Of a DNA stretch of 4,830 nt, positions 1-4,830 are shown piece after piece. This DNA is from a virus (lineage: Duplodnaviria > Heunggongvirae > Uroviricota > Caudoviricetes). Every line of letters begins with the position of its first letter. The first letter of the stretch is position 1. The position numbers were made by a program, and so were the translations under genes. Where the stretch lies: the IMG/VR virus record IMGVR_UViG_2576861193_000005. One strand, 5' to 3'. Below the pieces are notes generated by a model. The model made no database searches. It saw nothing but the letters and a program-made list of their open reading frames with translations, and had not been told where the DNA came from.

Positions 1-51
1 ACCGCCGGTATCAGCACCCCGCTGACATCCACCATTCTGGAGTTTTACTGA
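1..51 (+). CDS. 3' end of an upstream gene (16 codons, ...TAGISTPLTSTILEFY*), probably terminase large subunit (gpP-like) by P2 gene order; truncated by the window edge
   Basis: Frame 1 is open from base 1 to TGA at 49-51. That stop shares base 51 with the ATG of the portal gene, matching the P2 P/Q overlap as I recall it. No catalytic motif is visible in 16 residues, so identity rests on synteny only. Confidence 0.4.
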   Translation, partial: TAGISTPLTSTILEFY

Positions 52-1107
52 TGAGTAAGAAAAAAGGGAAAACACCGCGACCTGCGGCAAAAACAATCAC
101 CGCCAGCGCCCCGAAAATGGAAGCATTCACCTTTGGCGAGCCGGTGCCGGTACTCGACCGCCGTGACATTCTGGATTACGTCGAGTGCATCAGTAACGGC
201 AGATGGTATGAGCCACCAGTCAGCTTTACCGGTCTGGCAAAAAGCCTGCGTGCTGCCGTGCATCACAGCTCACCGATTTACGTCAAACGTAATATTCTGG
301 CCTCGCAATATTCTGGCTTCAACGTTTATCCCGCATCCGTGGCTTTCGCAACAGGATTTCAGCCGCTTTGTGCTGGATTTTCTGGTGTTCGGTAATGCGT
401 TTCTGGAAAAGCGTTACAGCACCACCGGTAAGGTCATCAGACTGGAAACCTCACCGGCAAAATATACCCGCCGTGGTGTGGAAGAGGATGTTTACTGGTG
501 GGTGCCGTCCTTCAACGAGCCGACAGCCTTCGCACCCGGCTCCGTGTTTCACCTGCTGGAGCCGGATATTAATCAGGAGCTGTACGGCCTGCCGGAATAT
601 CTCAGCGCCCTTAACTCTGCCTGGCTGAATGAGTCGGCCACGCTGTTCCGCCGCAAGTATTACGAAAATGGCGCCGGCGCTCATGCCGGATACATCATGT
701 ACGTCACCGATGCCGTGCAGGATCGCAACGATATCGAAATGCTTCGCGAAAACATGGTTAAGTCGAAAGGCCGCAATAACTTTAAAAATCTGTTTCTCTA
801 TGCCCCACAGGGGAAAGCCGACGGCATTAAAATTATCCCGCTCAGTGAAGTGGCAACGAAGGACGATTTTTTTAATATCAAAAAAGCCAGCGCCGCTGAC
901 CTGCTGGACGCGCATCGCATCCCCTTTCAGTTGATGGGCGGCAAGCCGGAGAACGTCGGGTCACTGGGAGATATTGAGAAAGTGGCAAAGGTCTTTGTCC
1001 GCAATGAGCTAATCCCGTTACAGGACAGGATTCGGGAAATAAACGGCTGGCTCGGTCAGGAGGTCATCCGCTTTAAAAACTACTCACTGGACACTGACAA
1101 CGGCTGA
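51..1107 (+). pseudogene. Q: P2 gpQ-like portal protein gene, disrupted by a +1 frameshift (16-bp insertion near 291-306)
   Basis: ORF 51..395 (frame 3) gives MSKKKGKTPRP...PIYVKRNILAS then junk to a stop at 393-395. ORF 133..1107 (frame 1) is junk until ~298, then RNILASTFIPHPWLSQQDFSRFVLDFLVFGNAFLEKRYS... to a stop at 1105-1107. Both frames encode RNILAS because aatattctggc occurs at 291-301 and again at 307-317. Removing 16 bp joins the frames into a ~346-aa protein, the size and sequence I recall for P2 portal gpQ (344 aa). Confidence 0.8.
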
Positions 1108-1112
1108 ACATC

Positions 1113-1134
1113 GCCGCCTGCGGGCGGCTTTTTT
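1113..1134 (+). terminator. Rho-independent terminator after the portal gene
   Basis: GC stem gccgcc (1113-1118), loop tgcg, ggcggc (1123-1128), then tttttt (1129-1134), starting 6 nt after the Q stop codon. Confidence 0.7.
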
Positions 1135-1439: not shown

Positions 1440-3791
1440 TTAAAGTTCTGTATATATTAGGCGTAGCATATCCTGCGCATAACTTTTCATATCTTCATCA
1501 GTCCATTCACGGATAACGTGCATAGGCTCATTGAGTGCAGTTCTAAACCCATGAATTCTTCTGGCCGTCTCCTCTTCCAAAATACCATCTTCAGCCAGTC
1601 GATTAATACACACAGAAAAATCCGTTCTATCATTTAAGTTGCAGTCTGTCAGTTGTTTGCGATAACGAGAACGGAATTCTGATTCAAGATATGGCCTTAA
1701 AGATAGTATTATTGTCTTATCAGTATCCACACCATTTATAAAATCAACAATCCTCTCATAGGATCTCTCATGGTCTGAAGCTATTAATTGCTCTACCTTC
1801 AGCGGTTCAAAATTAGAACCGTCTTGACCTTGTTTGATCTGAAGAATTCTATCCAAATTAAATTTTTGAGATGTCTTTGCTGCCATTCCTTTATAGTGTG
1901 TAGTAATAAACATCTGTTTTACATAAGGCTGTAATTCATACAACTTCTGCAAAATACAAGATATTCTTTCCTCATCAAAACTTGTTACAGGATCATCCAT
2001 AATAAGAATAGCTTTTGATTTCTCATCATTAGGTAACAAGTAAATTTTAGAAAGAAAGATGCACAAAGCCAAAGCTCGGCGATCTGACTCACTAAACAAA
2101 CAATTAAGTTTGTTTTTTCCAACTGACTTCCCATTAAATGAAACGTCAAGTTCATAAACAATTTTTGTACCCTGCCTGTTTATTTTTTTATTTATAGAAA
2201 ATTTACTAGATCCAACAGAACAGAACAGAGAATTAATGTGCTCAAAATATTTGTTTAAAAATTGCTCCTGGCATTCCTCTAATGTTTTCTTCTTCTCATT
2301 ATAGTTTTTTTCCCTAATATCTATTTCTTTTTTCAGTTCAAGATATTCTCGACAATCTGGCTCAAGCAATAATCTTTTTTTATTAGATTCCCACTGCTCA
2401 AGATCTTTTTGATAGATTCCCAGTAATACATCTAATTTGGTGGAATTGATACTTTCTTTATACTTCACCAACTCATTATTGAGCTGATTAATAATGCTAT
2501 TGTATGATTCCAATTTGCCATGAATTTCATGCTCAAATTGTAGAAGAGACGAAAAATCAAACCCCTTCATTTCGTTGTATACAGCTAATTCTTTCTCATC
2601 ATATATACACTCCAGTGATTGCTGAGCCTTAAGTAGATCTTGGTTAAATGTCAATATATCATTTCTTACTTGATTATAAATAGCACAACATGACTCAAAC
2701 CTTCCATTATTACTTAATTCATTTTTTATCTCATTCTCTAAATACTGTGACAAAACATCAATGTTTTTGCTATGTACATCATCAATTACATTTAATGAGA
2801 TAAATGAAAAATCAAGCCGCCTTATTTCTTTTAATTCTTTTTTTGTACTTTCAATAAAGCGCATAAATGACTCATCAAATGAATCCTTATAAGCACTAAT
2901 CAGCTCTTTTGATTCTCCTGATATACTCTGACCGCAAAACGGACATATTTCTGTGGCCATACCAAGCCCATTTGAGATCCATCCATTAAAATGATCGTGA
3001 GCCTTTATTCTCTCTTTATGTCGCTCTAATATAGAAAGTGCATCGTCATGAATTGTAGCCATTCCAGAAGAAAGACATTTATTAACCCTAATTGAAATAT
3101 CTTTCAACTTTGGTGTACAGTTAATTAAATTAAACAACGGCCTTGCTTTAATATATTTGACGGCTGTTTTCTTCTTTTCAACTTCTTGTATTGACTTAAT
3201 AAGCTCATTTATTTTTGAGTCAACGCAATCATAATCTGTTATGACAGGCTCACTATTAGCATACTCATCAACGTTATCAATTTGGTGTGATTGAATTAAA
3301 TCTTTTTTACTTCTTAACGAACCTCTTAAACTTCTTAATTCTGCATTCTCCTTTTCCAGAGCTTCAAAAGCAGCAACATTGTCTTCACCCAAAATAAATG
3401 CAGTAACACATTCAGAGTTTTCTCGATTAGATACTGTACCTGCCATTACATTTCTATGAACAAAACTCTGATCAAAGATATATAATTTAGAATCTGGTGG
3501 TGGTAATCCTGACCATTTATCTACATAAAATGAAACAACTCTATTTGAACTCCCCTCTGTGAATTGTAAATCAATCTTTGGAGTTACTTCACCATCTCCC
3601 TCCAGAATAGTCTTTCTGTTAACAACCAATTCAGGAGTATTCGTTGATAAAGAATAAAAGATGTCACAAAGAGTACTTTTACCATGTCTATTTTCACCGT
3701 AGATAACATTCATGTTATTAAACTCATAAGAGCTGGAGCGAGCTTTAATATAGTTACCTACGCCCTCTATTAATTTAATCCTCTTTAACAT
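1440..3791 (-). CDS. 783-aa PrrC/RloC-type (AAA_13-like) ABC ATPase with a long coiled-coil insert carrying CxxC, plus a C-terminal domain of unknown function; candidate single-gene anti-phage/abortive-infection protein (RloC-like)
   Basis: Uninterrupted 2352-nt ORF with ATG at 3789-3791, TAG at 1440-1442, and an AAGGA Shine-Dalgarno ~7 nt upstream. Motifs: Walker A GENRHGKST (aa 32-40, nt 3672-3698), Q-loop-like IFDQSF (aa 105-110), CPFC (aa 283-286, nt 2934-2945), signature-like SESDRR (aa 567-572, nt 2076-2093), Walker B/D-loop AILIMDDPVTSFD (aa 594-606), H-loop FITTHY (aa 628-633). Very AT-rich relative to both flanks. Confidence 0.85.
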   Translation of the reverse strand: MLKRIKLIEGVGNYIKARSSSYEFNNMNVIYGENRHGKSTLCDIFYSLSTNTPELVVNRKTILEGDGEVTPKIDLQFTEGSSNRVVSFYVDKWSGLPPPDSKLYIFDQSFVHRNVMAGTVSNRENSECVTAFILGEDNVAAFEALEKENAELRSLRGSLRSKKDLIQSHQIDNVDEYANSEPVITDYDCVDSKINELIKSIQEVEKKKTAVKYIKARPLFNLINCTPKLKDISIRVNKCLSSGMATIHDDALSILERHKERIKAHDHFNGWISNGLGMATEICPFCGQSISGESKELISAYKDSFDESFMRFIESTKKELKEIRRLDFSFISLNVIDDVHSKNIDVLSQYLENEIKNELSNNGRFESCCAIYNQVRNDILTFNQDLLKAQQSLECIYDEKELAVYNEMKGFDFSSLLQFEHEIHGKLESYNSIINQLNNELVKYKESINSTKLDVLLGIYQKDLEQWESNKKRLLLEPDCREYLELKKEIDIREKNYNEKKKTLEECQEQFLNKYFEHINSLFCSVGSSKFSINKKINRQGTKIVYELDVSFNGKSVGKNKLNCLFSESDRRALALCIFLSKIYLLPNDEKSKAILIMDDPVTSFDEERISCILQKLYELQPYVKQMFITTHYKGMAAKTSQKFNLDRILQIKQGQDGSNFEPLKVEQLIASDHERSYERIVDFINGVDTDKTIILSLRPYLESEFRSRYRKQLTDCNLNDRTDFSVCINRLAEDGILEEETARRIHGFRTALNEPMHVIREWTDEDMKSYAQDMLRLIYTEL

Positions 3792-3853
3792 TCTTTTTCC
3801 TTAATTAATTGTTAAGTTTCAATTACAACCAACACAATAAACTTAAGAAAATC

Positions 3854-3882
3854 AATATAATGCACAACAACAAAACTCACAA
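3854..3882 (-). promoter_or_regulatory. Candidate sigma70 promoter for the cargo gene (-35 TTGTGA, 17-nt spacer, -10 TATATT on the minus strand)
   Basis: On the + strand, tcacaa (3877-3882) and aatata (3854-3859) are 17 nt apart. The predicted start near 3846 gives a ~55-nt leader. AT-rich DNA yields many such matches, so this is tentative. Confidence 0.3.
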
Positions 3883-4015
3883 TACCTTACACGCTCGTTA
3901 CCTACTGCAAACTTATCTTGCAATACTAATAATCAAGTTTGAAATCATAATATCACCACATGAAATTGCCATATCGCAGAGGCTCCTTACTCGACAACTA
4001 AAATGTTTATACTCC

Positions 4016-4038
4016 AAAAAGTAAGTTTCTTACTTTTT
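4016..4038. terminator. Perfect 10-bp inverted repeat (aaaaagtaag ttt cttacttttt) between the GC-rich upstream gene and the cargo gene; possible weak bidirectional terminator
   Basis: The hairpin lies 20-42 nt downstream of the upstream gene's TGA (4058-4060). The stem is AU-rich and the U-run forms part of the stem, so predicted stability is low. Confidence 0.3.
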
Positions 4039-4057
4039 AACCGCATTAATTTCTACA

Positions 4058-4830
4058 TCACCTAAAACCTATCCACTCATCAGCGACCGGATACGTGAAT
4101 TGTTTCCCGTCATAATTTACAGTCGCGCCACGCGCCAGCGCCTCAAGCTCCCATCGCTGCGGCCTGATACCGTTCTGAGCAAGGTCAACGCGGATACGGG
4201 TGATTTGCATTCTTTCCGACCGGGTCAGTCTGGCCGATGGTGCAATTTCATGTAGTTTTAACGGGCTTCCGTTTCTTTGCTGACGGTTTGGTCTTCTCAG
4301 GCCGTGTTTTAATGCGCTTCTGAGCGCCCTCACAACCTCCGGGTCATTCCATTCGATAACACCGTCATCAACCAGATTAAGCACTGCTGCGGCGTGCTCA
4401 GAAGGTGTGGGAGCCGGTAACGAAGTATCACCGCCGGTGAGCTTTCCACAGTTATTGACAGGACTCCGAGGCGCGGCGATGCCGCTTTTTAAAGTCAAAG
4501 GCTCAACGACCGGCACTTTCGGAACAATGCGCCAGTCCGTCGTTCTGGTGATATGAATATGACGCGCGCCGAGATGCGGCGCGTAAATGCCGACCACTCT
4601 CTCGACTTCTTCCTCGTACTCGTTAACGTCATCCGACGGGCTACGGGCGACCCTGACAGTCTGACAATCGCGCGGGACATTTGCCCCGCCCTGCGCGCTG
4701 ATATACAACGCAAAATCACCACTGTCTGCAGCGGCGCGTGCAGCCTCGACGCGTTCATCAAACTCATCAGCAATGCTGACGCCGCGAGGCAATTTGCGTA
4801 GTTCACGGTAAGCCCCCATTGTCGGCAGGC
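4058..4830 (-). CDS. 3' portion (at least 257 codons) of a GC-rich prophage core gene running off the window; by P2 gene order possibly replication initiation protein gpA, identity unverified
   Basis: ORF 4058..4819 with TGA at 4058-4060. The frame stays open upstream of the Met at 4819 to the window edge and no Shine-Dalgarno precedes that ATG (upstream reads gcctgccgaca), so the true start is probably beyond the window. GC-rich like the Q side. I do not recognise a diagnostic motif. Confidence 0.6.
   Translation of the reverse strand, partial: LPTMGAYRELRKLPRGVSIADEFDERVEAARAAADSGDFALYISAQGGANVPRDCQTVRVARSPSDDVNEYEEEVERVVGIYAPHLGARHIHITRTTDWRIVPKVPVVEPLTLKSGIAAPRSPVNNCGKLTGGDTSLPAPTPSEHAAAVLNLVDDGVIEWNDPEVVRALRSALKHGLRRPNRQQRNGSPLKLHEIAPSARLTRSERMQITRIRVDLAQNGIRPQRWELEALARGATVNYDGKQFTYPVADEWIGFR

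What the first reader, a model, noticed from the sequence alone, without database searches (positions are those of the whole stretch)
1443..1874. C-terminal ~145-aa domain without a motif I can place: possible novel effector module
After the H-loop the protein continues from AAKTSQKFNLDRIL to RIHGFRTALNEPMHVIREWTDEDMKSYAQDMLRLIYTEL. If RloC-like, this should be the anticodon nuclease, whose PrrC prototype I recall as having an Arg-x3-Glu ... His triad. I see Arg/Glu/His clusters (RLAED at aa 731-735; RRIHGFR at 744-750; H758) but not that spacing. The domain may be a divergent HEPN-type RNase or a different effector. The biological novelty would sit here.
Basis: inference. Interest (0 to 1): 0.7.

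Follow-up and report, generated by a model that had tools for sequence, protein, structure and literature searches.

The report
RloC-like HEPN RNase domain, not novel
The unexplained tail of this prophage protein is a diverged HEPN ribonuclease domain with the same catalytic residues as the tRNA-cutting anti-phage enzymes RloC and PrrC, so it is an untested member of a known kind of defence protein, not a new effector.

Summary
The coordinates and quoted peptides are correct: window 1443-1874 (minus strand) encodes aa 640-783 of a 783-aa, low-GC ORF. The ORF sits in the P2-prophage defence hotspot between gpA and portal gpQ.

R699-x3-E703 ... N754-x3-H758 is present, and these are the most conserved C-terminal columns in 71 species-level homologues.

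Distant family members lie between hsdS and hsdR of type I R-M operons, as prrC does.

One caveat remains. The domain shows no significant sequence similarity to the canonical RloC-type C-domain (Pfam AAA_13 positions 571-713; hhalign probability below 1%). It forms its own small HEPN subfamily of 297 clusters, catalogued only as the untested PADLOC candidate PDC-S06.

Verdict: a divergent HEPN nuclease of an RloC-like abortive-infection protein, probably an anticodon nuclease. Interest is low.

The parts
1440..3791 (-). Whole gene: 783-aa RloC-like ABC ATPase-HEPN protein (PADLOC candidate PDC-S06). It is single-gene cargo of the P2 hotspot, 32.8% GC against 53-56% in the flanks.
   Evidence: ORF. 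Pfam AAA_13 8.7e-34. PADLOC PDLC04895 2.7e-154 over the full length. Annotated 'AAA family ATPase' in 23 of 5426 E. coli genomes. GC values.
1443..1796 (-). HEPN domain (aa 666-783), the predicted RNase effector and the subject of the finding.
1770..1772 (-). H674 codon, at the position of PrrC His295, 25 residues before the Arg in both proteins.
   Evidence: H in 46 and Y in 21 of 71 homologues. PrrC H295 is essential and conserved in RloC (PMC3025547).
1671..1697 (-). RPYLESEFR (aa 699-707) on HEPN helix 2. It carries R699-x3-E703, matching PrrC R320/E324 and RloC R692/E696. It also carries E703-x3-R707, the HEPN Ex3[KR] motif.
   Evidence: R699 71/71 and E703 69/71. Helix 692-709. Literature.
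1518..1544 (-). [quoted passage not shown] R750-x3-N754-x3-H758 corresponds to PrrC R349-x2-N352-x3-H356, the HEPN Arg...His catalytic motif.
   Evidence: R750 61/71, N754 70/71, H758 70/71. Secondary structure. PrrC mutagenesis.
1797..1859 (-). Beta-hairpin (aa 645-665) that closes the ABC head and links it to the HEPN domain.
   Evidence: Strands 648-655 and 658-665 in the full-length model.
3672..3698 (-). Walker A motif, GENRHGKST (aa 32-40).
   Evidence: G37 and K38 invariant.
2217..3425 (-). Long helical (coiled-coil) insert in the ATPase head, aa 123-525, Rad50-like.
   Evidence: Full-length AF2 model. Foldseek top hits are Rad50, SMC heads and Lamassu LmuB.
2934..2945 (-). CPFC (aa 283-286), a putative zinc hook at the apex of the insert.
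   Evidence: C283 and C286 in 71 of 71 homologues. RloC zinc hook CXXC with C291 in G. kaustophilus.
1893..2093 (-). C-lobe ATPase motifs: signature SESDRR (aa 567-572), Walker B/D-loop ILIMDDPVTSFD (aa 595-606), H-loop TTHY (aa 630-633).
   Evidence: S567, D599, D600 and H632 in 71 of 71 homologues. RecF/SMC_N partial matches. Coordinates.
3792..4057 (-). AT-rich intergenic region upstream of the gene, following the gpA stop. It holds a Shine-Dalgarno-like AAGGA 8 nt before the ATG and two promoter-like sites.
   Evidence: Sequence. Consensus matches at 3972-3944 and 3882-3854, which are no more frequent than in shuffled sequence.

Best explanation
Residues ~666-783 form a HEPN-fold, metal-independent endoribonuclease domain. 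It is the toxic effector of a single-polypeptide, RloC-like abortive-infection protein carried as cargo in the P2-prophage defence hotspot.

Shown here: the HEPN fold prediction; the conserved constellation H674, R699-x3-E703, R750-x3-N754-x3-H758; the fusion to a Rad50-like ABC ATPase with a coiled coil and a CxxC; the hotspot and R-M contexts.

Inferred by analogy with PrrC and RloC: in uninfected cells the ABC head and zinc-hook module keep the nuclease silent. A phage-associated cue (DNA damage or DNA ends, or loss of restriction activity) changes the nucleotide state or dimerisation of the head. That brings two HEPN domains into an active arrangement. H758, with R699, E703, R750 and N754, then cleaves RNA, most likely tRNA anticodon loops, leaving 2',3'-cyclic phosphate ends. 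Translation stops and the superinfecting phage fails.
For: Fold:
- AF2 model of aa 636-783 has mean pLDDT 81.7, and 79-94 per 10-residue block (mostly above 85) across the helical core.
- Foldseek's top 19 hits are HepT/HEPN proteins.
- 13 of 29 family C-domains give weak DUF4145 hits (best 3e-4), plus HEPN_Swt1 and HepT-like hits.

Catalytic residues:
- R699 71/71, E703 69/71, N754 70/71, H758 70/71, R750 61/71 across homologues from many phyla and one archaeon.
- They reproduce the residues essential in PrrC (H295, R320, E324, R349, N352, H356; PMC3025547) and the RloC triad R692/E696/H737 (PMC2610378).
- The His-to-Arg distance is 25 residues in both this protein and PrrC. The pattern arises in 15 of 200,000 shuffles.

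Architecture:
- Pfam AAA_13.
- Rad50, SMC and LmuB structural matches.
- Helical insert with an invariant CxxC.
- JGI names homologues 'wobble nucleotide-excising tRNase'.

Context:
- The gene lies between gpA and gpQ, the P2 hotspot.
- 13-15 of 59 distant family loci are arranged hsdM-hsdS-gene-hsdR.
- PDC-S06 belongs to PADLOC's phage-defence-candidate (PDC) models; a 2024 preprint from the PADLOC authors derives PDCs from genes embedded in R-M, BREX and DISARM systems.
- The distant member P0051 matches the PADLOC PrrC model at 7.7e-7 over a stretch that includes its R-x3-E.
- The C-domain is found only at the C-terminus of ~780-aa proteins or of shorter entries that look like fragments of them.
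Against: - No significant sequence similarity to the canonical RloC-type C-domain. The isolated C-domains of seven family members do not hit Pfam AAA_13 positions 571-713. The C-domain of the other P2-hotspot 'RloC-like' protein (P0200) hits it at 3.6e-19.
- hhalign of the family profile against that lineage gives probabilities of 0.7% and 0.2%.
- The window protein does not hit the PADLOC PrrC model.
- The Arg-to-His spacing is 7 residues, outside the Rx4-6H range. R750 is replaced by I, K, H or L in 9 of 71 homologues.
- The E-to-H spacer is 54 residues, outside the published 36-52.
- DUF4145 hits are below Pfam's cut-off (13.9 against 23.1 bits). Foldseek E-values are weak, 0.14 or worse.
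- I found no experimental data on this family. RNase activity, substrate, trigger and anti-phage activity are all inferred.
- I could not inspect model coordinates, so the spatial clustering of the residues was not checked.
Confidence: 0.75

Rival explanations
1. HEPN RNase, but not an anticodon nuclease. The diverged domain cleaves mRNA or rRNA, or a different tRNA site, as RnlA/LsoA, HepT or Cas13 collateral activity do.
For: The closest structural neighbours are HepT toxins and MNT-associated HEPNs, not a PrrC or RloC structure; no chain described as PrrC or RloC appeared among the listed PDB matches. There is no sequence similarity to the canonical ACNase domain. PrrC's specificity is attributed to a LARP peptide that is not conserved even among its homologues.
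Against: The invariant R-x3-E on helix 2 and the R-x(2-3)-N-x3-H are the PrrC/RloC constellation specifically; the generic HEPN helix-2 motif is Ex3[KR]. The architecture and the R-M embedding are the same as for the known ACNases.
Confidence: 0.17
2. A non-catalytic HEPN domain that serves only for dimerisation, RNA or nucleotide binding, or regulation, as in MtlR or the substrate-binding domains of nucleotidyltransferases. The toxic or defensive activity would lie elsewhere.
Against: A polar Arg, Glu, Asn and His set that stays invariant across bacterial phyla and an archaeon is typical of an active site. According to Anantharaman et al., HEPN domains that keep the Arg...His motif are predicted RNases, and the non-catalytic ones have lost it. 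The protein has no other candidate effector domain.
Confidence: 0.06
3. One reading: a new effector module unrelated to HEPN, PrrC or RloC.
For: No curated HMM passes threshold on the domain. The word-indexed search with the domain alone found nothing. The PDB sequence-profile search found nothing significant.
Against: A confident HEPN fold assignment and the conserved PrrC/RloC-type residues. PADLOC model PDLC04895 already covers the domain, at 1.3e-24 for the domain alone.
Confidence: 0.02

Closest known systems
RloC (Geobacillus kaustophilus, 804 aa; Davidov & Kaufmann 2008, PMC2610378)
   Same: - Similar length (783 against 804 aa).
- ABC ATPase head interrupted by a coiled-coil insert with an apical CxxC (C283/C286 against C291).
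- C-terminal ~120-150-aa domain carrying Arg-x3-Glu...His at almost the same positions (R699/E703/H758 against R692/E696/H737).
- Stand-alone gene, with some relatives inside type I R-M loci.
- JGI annotates homologues with the RloC COG name.
   Different: - E-to-H spacer of 54 residues (family range 50-55) against 40 in G. kaustophilus RloC and 36-52 in the published set.
- The residue before His is Met here. Across the family it is H, S, M or A, whereas in RloC it is 'often Ser'.
- No significant sequence similarity of the C-domain to the canonical RloC-type domain modelled by Pfam AAA_13 positions 571-713.
- Activity is untested.
- I could not obtain the G. kaustophilus RloC sequence for a direct alignment.
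PrrC anticodon nuclease (E. coli, 396 aa)
   Same: - ABC NTPase fused in cis to a C-terminal HEPN nuclease.
- The order and spacing of essential residues match: H295-x24-R320-x3-E324...R349-x2-N352-x3-H356 against H674-x24-R699-x3-E703...R750-x3-N754-x3-H758.
- Distant family members sit between hsdS and hsdR, as prrC does.
   Different: - PrrC has no coiled-coil or zinc-hook insert and is half the size.
- The window copy is in a prophage hotspot without an R-M partner.
- There is one extra residue between Arg and Asn and a longer helix 2 to helix 3 insert.
- No hit to the PADLOC PrrC model.
'RloC-like' AAA_13 system #5 of the P2 hotspot (Rousset et al. 2022, Table S5B; P0200)
   Same: Same hotspot between gpA and gpQ. 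It is a single AAA_13 gene with a CPFC motif and a C-terminal R-x3-E...R-x2-N-x3-H (MRNILE...RYINRGSH).
   Different: It is a different lineage. Its C-domain matches Pfam AAA_13 positions 571-712 at 3.6e-19, and ours does not. hhalign probability between the two is below 1%. It is much commoner: 420 hotspot occurrences, against 23 of 5426 complete genomes for the window gene.
Prophage-borne ABC-HEPN fusions of Anantharaman et al. 2013 (APECO1_4465 and ERFG_01251 families; PMC3710099)
   Different: The window gene is absent from APEC O1 at the nucleotide level.
HepT/MNT-associated HEPN toxins (1wwp, 5yep, 8xdj, 7ae2)
   Different: They are small stand-alone toxins neutralised by MNT antitoxins through AMPylation. 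They carry Rx4H rather than R-x3-N-x3-H and are not fused to an ATPase.

Membership tests
RloC family (Davidov & Kaufmann 2008) | ABC ATPase motifs: Walker A, signature, Walker B/D-loop, H-loop | tested here: met
   Pfam AAA_13 8.7e-34. G37, K38, S567, D599, D600 and H632 are invariant. Rad50 and SMC heads are the top Foldseek hits.
RloC family (Davidov & Kaufmann 2008) | Coiled-coil insert with a central CXXC zinc hook inside the ATPase domain | tested here: met
   Helical insert aa 123-525 in the AF2 model. CPFC 283-286, with both Cys present in 71 of 71 homologues. Zinc binding itself cannot be tested here.
RloC family (Davidov & Kaufmann 2008) | C-proximal Arg-X3-Glu-X36-52-His triad, with Ser often preceding His | tested here: met
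   R699-x3-E703-x54-H758. All three residues are at least 69/71 conserved. The family spacer is 50-55 residues, overlapping the upper end of the published range; the window copy is 2 residues beyond it. The position before His is H in 24, S in 22 and M in 14 homologues.
RloC family (Davidov & Kaufmann 2008) | Detectable sequence homology of the C-domain to the canonical RloC/PrrC nuclease domain | tested here: not met
   The AAA_13 match stops at profile position 571 of 713. Isolated C-domains of seven family members do not hit AAA_13, while the P0200 C-domain does at 3.6e-19. hhalign probabilities are 0.7% and 0.2%.
RloC family (Davidov & Kaufmann 2008) | Wobble-nucleotide-excising tRNase activity regulated by the zinc hook and a DNA-dependent ATPase | not testable with these tools
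   Requires biochemistry.
PrrC | ~400-aa ABC NTPase without a coiled-coil insert, embedded in a type Ic hsdMSR locus | tested here: not met
   The protein is 783 aa with a 400-aa insert. The window copy lies between P2 gpA and gpQ. No PADLOC PrrC hit at E<=1. Distant relatives are embedded in hsd operons.
HEPN superfamily (Anantharaman et al. 2013) | Four-helix up-down bundle fold | tested here: met
HEPN superfamily (Anantharaman et al. 2013) | [quoted passage not shown] | tested here: inconclusive
   H758 (70/71) is in the right place. The nearest conserved Arg, R750 (61/71), is 7 residues upstream, one more than the published maximum. N754-x3-H758 matches PrrC N352-x3-H356.
HEPN superfamily (Anantharaman et al. 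2013) | Conserved acidic residue on helix 2 (Ex3[KR]) | tested here: met
   E703 (69/71) on helix 692-709. R707 is R or K in 36 of 71 homologues.
HEPN superfamily (Anantharaman et al. 2013) | Match to a curated HEPN-clan HMM above threshold | tested here: not met
   DUF4145 scores 13.9 bits against a 23.1-bit cut-off for the window. 13 of 29 members give sub-threshold hits, best 3e-4. That DUF4145 is a HEPN family is stated in PMC3710099.
PADLOC phage defence candidate PDC-S06 | Full-length match to a PDC-S06 HMM | tested here: met
   PDLC04895 at 2.7e-154 over aa 1-783. The C-domain alone scores 1.3e-24. All 49 aligned homologues match.

The most novel reading that the evidence does not exclude
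This small, sequence-distinct HEPN subfamily has 297 clusters at 50% identity, always fused to the same ~640-aa Rad50-like head. It may have evolved a different RNA specificity or cleavage mode from PrrC and RloC. Examples would be another tRNA species or site, or a substrate that escapes phage tRNA repair and phage-encoded tRNAs. Its Rad50-like head may also sense a cue relevant to P2-type prophages, such as incoming linear DNA ends. It would then be a new anticodon-nuclease specificity class, not a copy of RloC.
Probability: 0.3. Interest if true: 0.45.

Novelty: new member of a known kind. Interest (0 to 1): 0.22.

Why it matters
It explains the effector end of an otherwise unannotated 'AAA family ATPase' in the P2 defence hotspot. 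It also indicates that PADLOC candidate PDC-S06 (model PDLC04895) is an RloC-type ABC-HEPN protein, and it gives the right residues to mutate: R699, E703, N754, H758 and C283/C286. The practical value is better annotation and a well-posed experiment. It does not reveal a new mechanism. ABC-HEPN anticodon nucleases, their R-M embedding and their carriage on prophages have been known since 1990-2013.

Tried and rejected
- The word-indexed homologue search with the C-domain alone found nothing. The full-length search was needed.
- Sequence and profile searches of the PDB found only RecF for the ATPase part and nothing significant for the C-domain.
- NCBIfam and PHROGs gave nothing for the domain.
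- The afdb50 fold library was not available, so UniProt-named RloC and PrrC models could not be matched.
- I looked for APECO1_4465 in APEC O1 by guessing coordinates from its gi number and did not find it. The window gene is absent from that genome at the nucleotide level.
- The literature and supplements were searched for experimental tests of PDC-S06 or of this protein. Only candidate listings turned up.
- hhalign against the canonical RloC-like C-domain lineage was negative, both against the single sequence and against 16 viral-contig homologues.
- Rfam found nothing in the window.
- The promoter scan found no more sites than in shuffled sequence.
- Rejected: R744, R745 and H747 as catalytic residues, because they are variable.
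- Rejected: the loose R-x3-E...H motif as evidence on its own, because it occurs in 28% of shuffles.
Full report
**1. What is in the window**

The 4830-bp window is part of an E. coli P2-like prophage.
- A portal (gpQ) gene lies at 51..1107 on the plus strand.
- The C-terminal part of the replication endonuclease gpA lies at 4058..4819 on the minus strand.
- Between them is one 783-aa ORF on the minus strand, 1440..3791.
- That ORF is 32.8% GC, against 53-56% in the flanks.
- The gpA-gpQ interval is the cos-proximal hotspot of anti-phage cargo in P2-like phages described by Rousset et al. 2022 (PMC9122126).
- The gene occurs in 23 of 5426 complete E. coli genomes. It has two alleles (>=99% and ~86% identity) and is always annotated only as 'AAA family ATPase'.
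- No second gene accompanies it in the cassette.

**2. Checking the observation**

The finding's coordinates, 1443-1874 on the minus strand, encode aa 640-783. The quoted peptides are at the stated residue numbers. No curated family model passes threshold on this stretch:
- Pfam AAA_13 matches aa 12-634 only, which is profile positions 3-571 of 713.
- The best hit on the isolated tail is DUF4145 at 13.9 bits, below the 23.1-bit cut-off.
- NCBIfam and PHROGs give nothing.

The specific statement that the PrrC-type Arg-x3-Glu...His arrangement is absent is wrong. The sequence reads L-R699-P-Y-L-E703 ... R750-T-A-L-N754-E-P-M-H758.

**3. Conservation**

A full-length search found 52 homologues. 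A scan of one genome per species found 76 loci. They come from Gammaproteobacteria, Bacteroidota, Patescibacteria, Planctomycetota, Firmicutes and an ANME-1 archaeon, and nearly all encode proteins of ~775-795 aa.

Across 71 of these proteins the C-terminal positions score as follows:

| Position | Conservation |
|---|---|
| R699 | 71/71 |
| E703 | 69/71 |
| N754 | 70/71 |
| H758 | 70/71 |
| R750 | 61/71 |
| H674 | H in 46, Y in 21 |
| H747 | 53/71 |
| R744, R745 | variable |

**4. Fold**

- An AlphaFold2 model of aa 636-783, built on a 29-sequence alignment, has mean pLDDT 81.7. It shows a beta-hairpin followed by a helical bundle.
- Foldseek agrees qualitatively. Its top 19 hits are HepT/HEPN proteins, but with weak E-values of 0.14 or worse.
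- 13 of 29 family C-domains give sub-threshold DUF4145 hits (best 3e-4), and a few hit HEPN_Swt1 or HepT-like.
- R699 and E703 lie one turn apart on the second core helix (692-709). N754 and H758 lie at the end of the third core helix and in the loop after it. Anantharaman et al. 2013 place the HEPN acidic residue and the Arg...His catalytic motif at these positions (PMC3710099).

**5. Comparison with PrrC and RloC from the literature**

- Davidov & Kaufmann defined RloC by three features: ABC ATPase motifs, a Rad50-like coiled-coil and CXXC zinc-hook insert, and a C-proximal Arg-X3-Glu-X36-52-His motif. In G. kaustophilus RloC (804 aa) the triad is R692/E696/H737 and the hook cysteine is C291. 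Mutating any triad residue abolishes ACNase activity (PMC2610378).
- Meineke & Shuman showed that E. coli PrrC needs H295, R320, N321, E324, R349, N352 and H356. They noted that H295, R320, E324, R349, N352 and H356 are conserved in RloC (PMC3025547).
- The window protein has H674-x24-R699-x3-E703 ... R750-x3-N754-x3-H758. PrrC has H295-x24-R320-x3-E324 ... R349-x2-N352-x3-H356.
- This six-residue pattern appears in 15 of 200,000 shuffles of the C-terminal segment. The loose three-residue RloC motif appears in 28% of shuffles and is uninformative alone.

**6. The rest of the protein**

It is RloC-like.
- The ABC motifs are invariant.
- A ~400-aa helical insert carries CPFC at 283-286, with both cysteines present in 71 of 71 homologues.
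- The best structural matches of the full-length model are Rad50, SMC heads and Lamassu LmuB.
- JGI names several homologues 'wobble nucleotide-excising tRNase'.

**7. Genomic context of relatives**

In 13-15 of 59 analysable loci, mostly the 25-29%-identical members, the gene sits between hsdM-hsdS and hsdR. Pfam hits on the neighbours confirm this: N6_Mtase/HsdM_N, Methylase_S, and HSDR_N/SWI2_SNF2. This is the arrangement of prrC and of the Campylobacter 'restriction-linked orf' genes that gave RloC its name.

PADLOC assigns the protein full-length to candidate PDC-S06 (PDLC04895, 2.7e-154; the tail alone scores 1.3e-24). A 2024 preprint from the PADLOC authors describes deriving phage defence candidates (PDCs) from genes embedded in R-M, BREX and DISARM systems; that preprint does not name PDC-S06. 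I found no experimental test of PDC-S06.

**8. How divergent is the domain?**

- A profile of the C-domain searched against 1.84 billion representative proteins finds only 297 at E<=1e-3. In the 150 listed, the domain is always at the C-terminal end of ~780-aa proteins or of shorter entries that look like fragments of them. The profile therefore does not reach the much larger canonical RloC and PrrC populations.
- Rousset et al.'s Table S5B lists a different AAA_13 protein as 'RloC-like' system #5 of the same hotspot.
- The full C-domain of that protein (P0200; MRNILE...RYINRGSH) matches Pfam AAA_13 positions 571-712 at 3.6e-19. The isolated C-domains of seven members of our family give no AAA_13 hit.
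- hhalign of our family profile against P0200, or against 16 of its relatives from viral contigs, gives probabilities of 0.7% and 0.2%. The forced global alignment does, however, pair LRPflE with MRNILE.
- One distant family member (P0051) does match the PADLOC PrrC model at 7.7e-7, over a stretch that includes its own R-x3-E.
- Other differences: the Arg-to-His distance is 7 residues, not 4-6, and the E-to-H spacer is 54 residues (family range 50-55), against 36-52.

Kinship with the PrrC/RloC nuclease therefore rests on fold, residue pattern, architecture and context. It does not rest on a statistically significant alignment. I could not obtain bona fide G. kaustophilus RloC or E. coli PrrC sequences, and the AlphaFold-database fold library was unavailable.

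**9. Mechanism**

Shown here:
- a HEPN-fold domain with a conserved HEPN/PrrC-type polar constellation;
- covalent fusion to a Rad50-like ABC ATPase with a putative zinc hook;
- location in a prophage defence hotspot, and in R-M operons elsewhere.

Inferred from the PrrC and RloC literature:
- The ATPase and hook module keeps the nuclease latent.
- It releases or assembles the nuclease, probably as a HEPN dimer when the heads engage, in response to a phage-linked cue.
- The nuclease then cuts tRNA anticodon loops by metal-independent transesterification. Translation stops and the infection aborts.
- The substrate and the trigger are unknown for this family.

**10. Verdict**

It is met at the level of residues, fold and architecture, but not at the level of a significant sequence alignment.

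The domain is best described as a divergent HEPN subfamily inside an RloC-like protein. It is an uncharacterised member of a known kind. Prophage-borne ABC-HEPN fusions were predicted to be anti-phage devices in 2013. Interest is low. The residual interest lies in a possibly distinct RNA specificity and in validating PDC-S06 experimentally.

Noticed in passing
window 291-306, ~669-674 and 1312-1324: Compared with the closest E. coli genome, the window carries three small tandem-duplication-like insertions. A 16-bp one (AATATTCTGGCCTCGC) lies inside the portal gene and shifts its frame: the ORF splits into 51..395 and 133..1107, 1057 nt in total against 1035 nt in the reference. A 6-bp one lies further into the portal gene. 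A 13-bp one (GGTTTTAATGCAC) lies in the cos-proximal intergenic region. The portal is therefore a pseudogene here, or these are assembly errors. The defence gene itself is 99.6-99.8% identical to the references and has no gaps in the alignment.
   Followed up: partly
L039:4652-5980 (also L030 and L057): In three marine gammaproteobacterial loci a reverse transcriptase (RVT_1, 1.2e-19) lies between hsdS and the RloC-like gene inside the type I R-M operon. This suggests a second embedded defence gene next to it.
   Followed up: no
L002:1666-5922 and L003:1706-5959: In Vibrio paucivorans and Aeromonas media the 40%-identical homologue is preceded on the same strand by three ORFs of about 582-585, 681 and 152-155 aa. 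The three Aeromonas (L003) ORFs had no Pfam hit at E<=1e-5. Only the 681-aa pair was shown to be homologous between the two loci. This may be an uncharacterised companion module or island.
   Followed up: no
P0200; L080-L103 (IMG/VR contigs): A second, unrelated-in-sequence RloC-like AAA_13 lineage occupies the same P2 hotspot (Rousset Table S5B system #5, 420 occurrences). Its C-domain is canonical (MRNILE...RYINRGSH). P2-like phages therefore carry at least two distinct ABC-HEPN lineages.
   Followed up: partly
window 4030-4055 (minus strand) and 1111-1128 (plus strand): Hairpin plus T-run structures lie directly after the gpA stop (AAAAAGTAAGAAACTTACTTTTT) and after the portal stop (GCCGCCTGCGGGCGGC TTTTTT). 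They look like terminators that insulate the cargo gene from the phage operons.
   Followed up: no
P0199: The database protein identical to Rousset's system #5 N-terminus continues into a membrane-protein-like C-terminus (PF04976). It looks like a chimeric or misassembled contig, not a real fusion.
   Followed up: no
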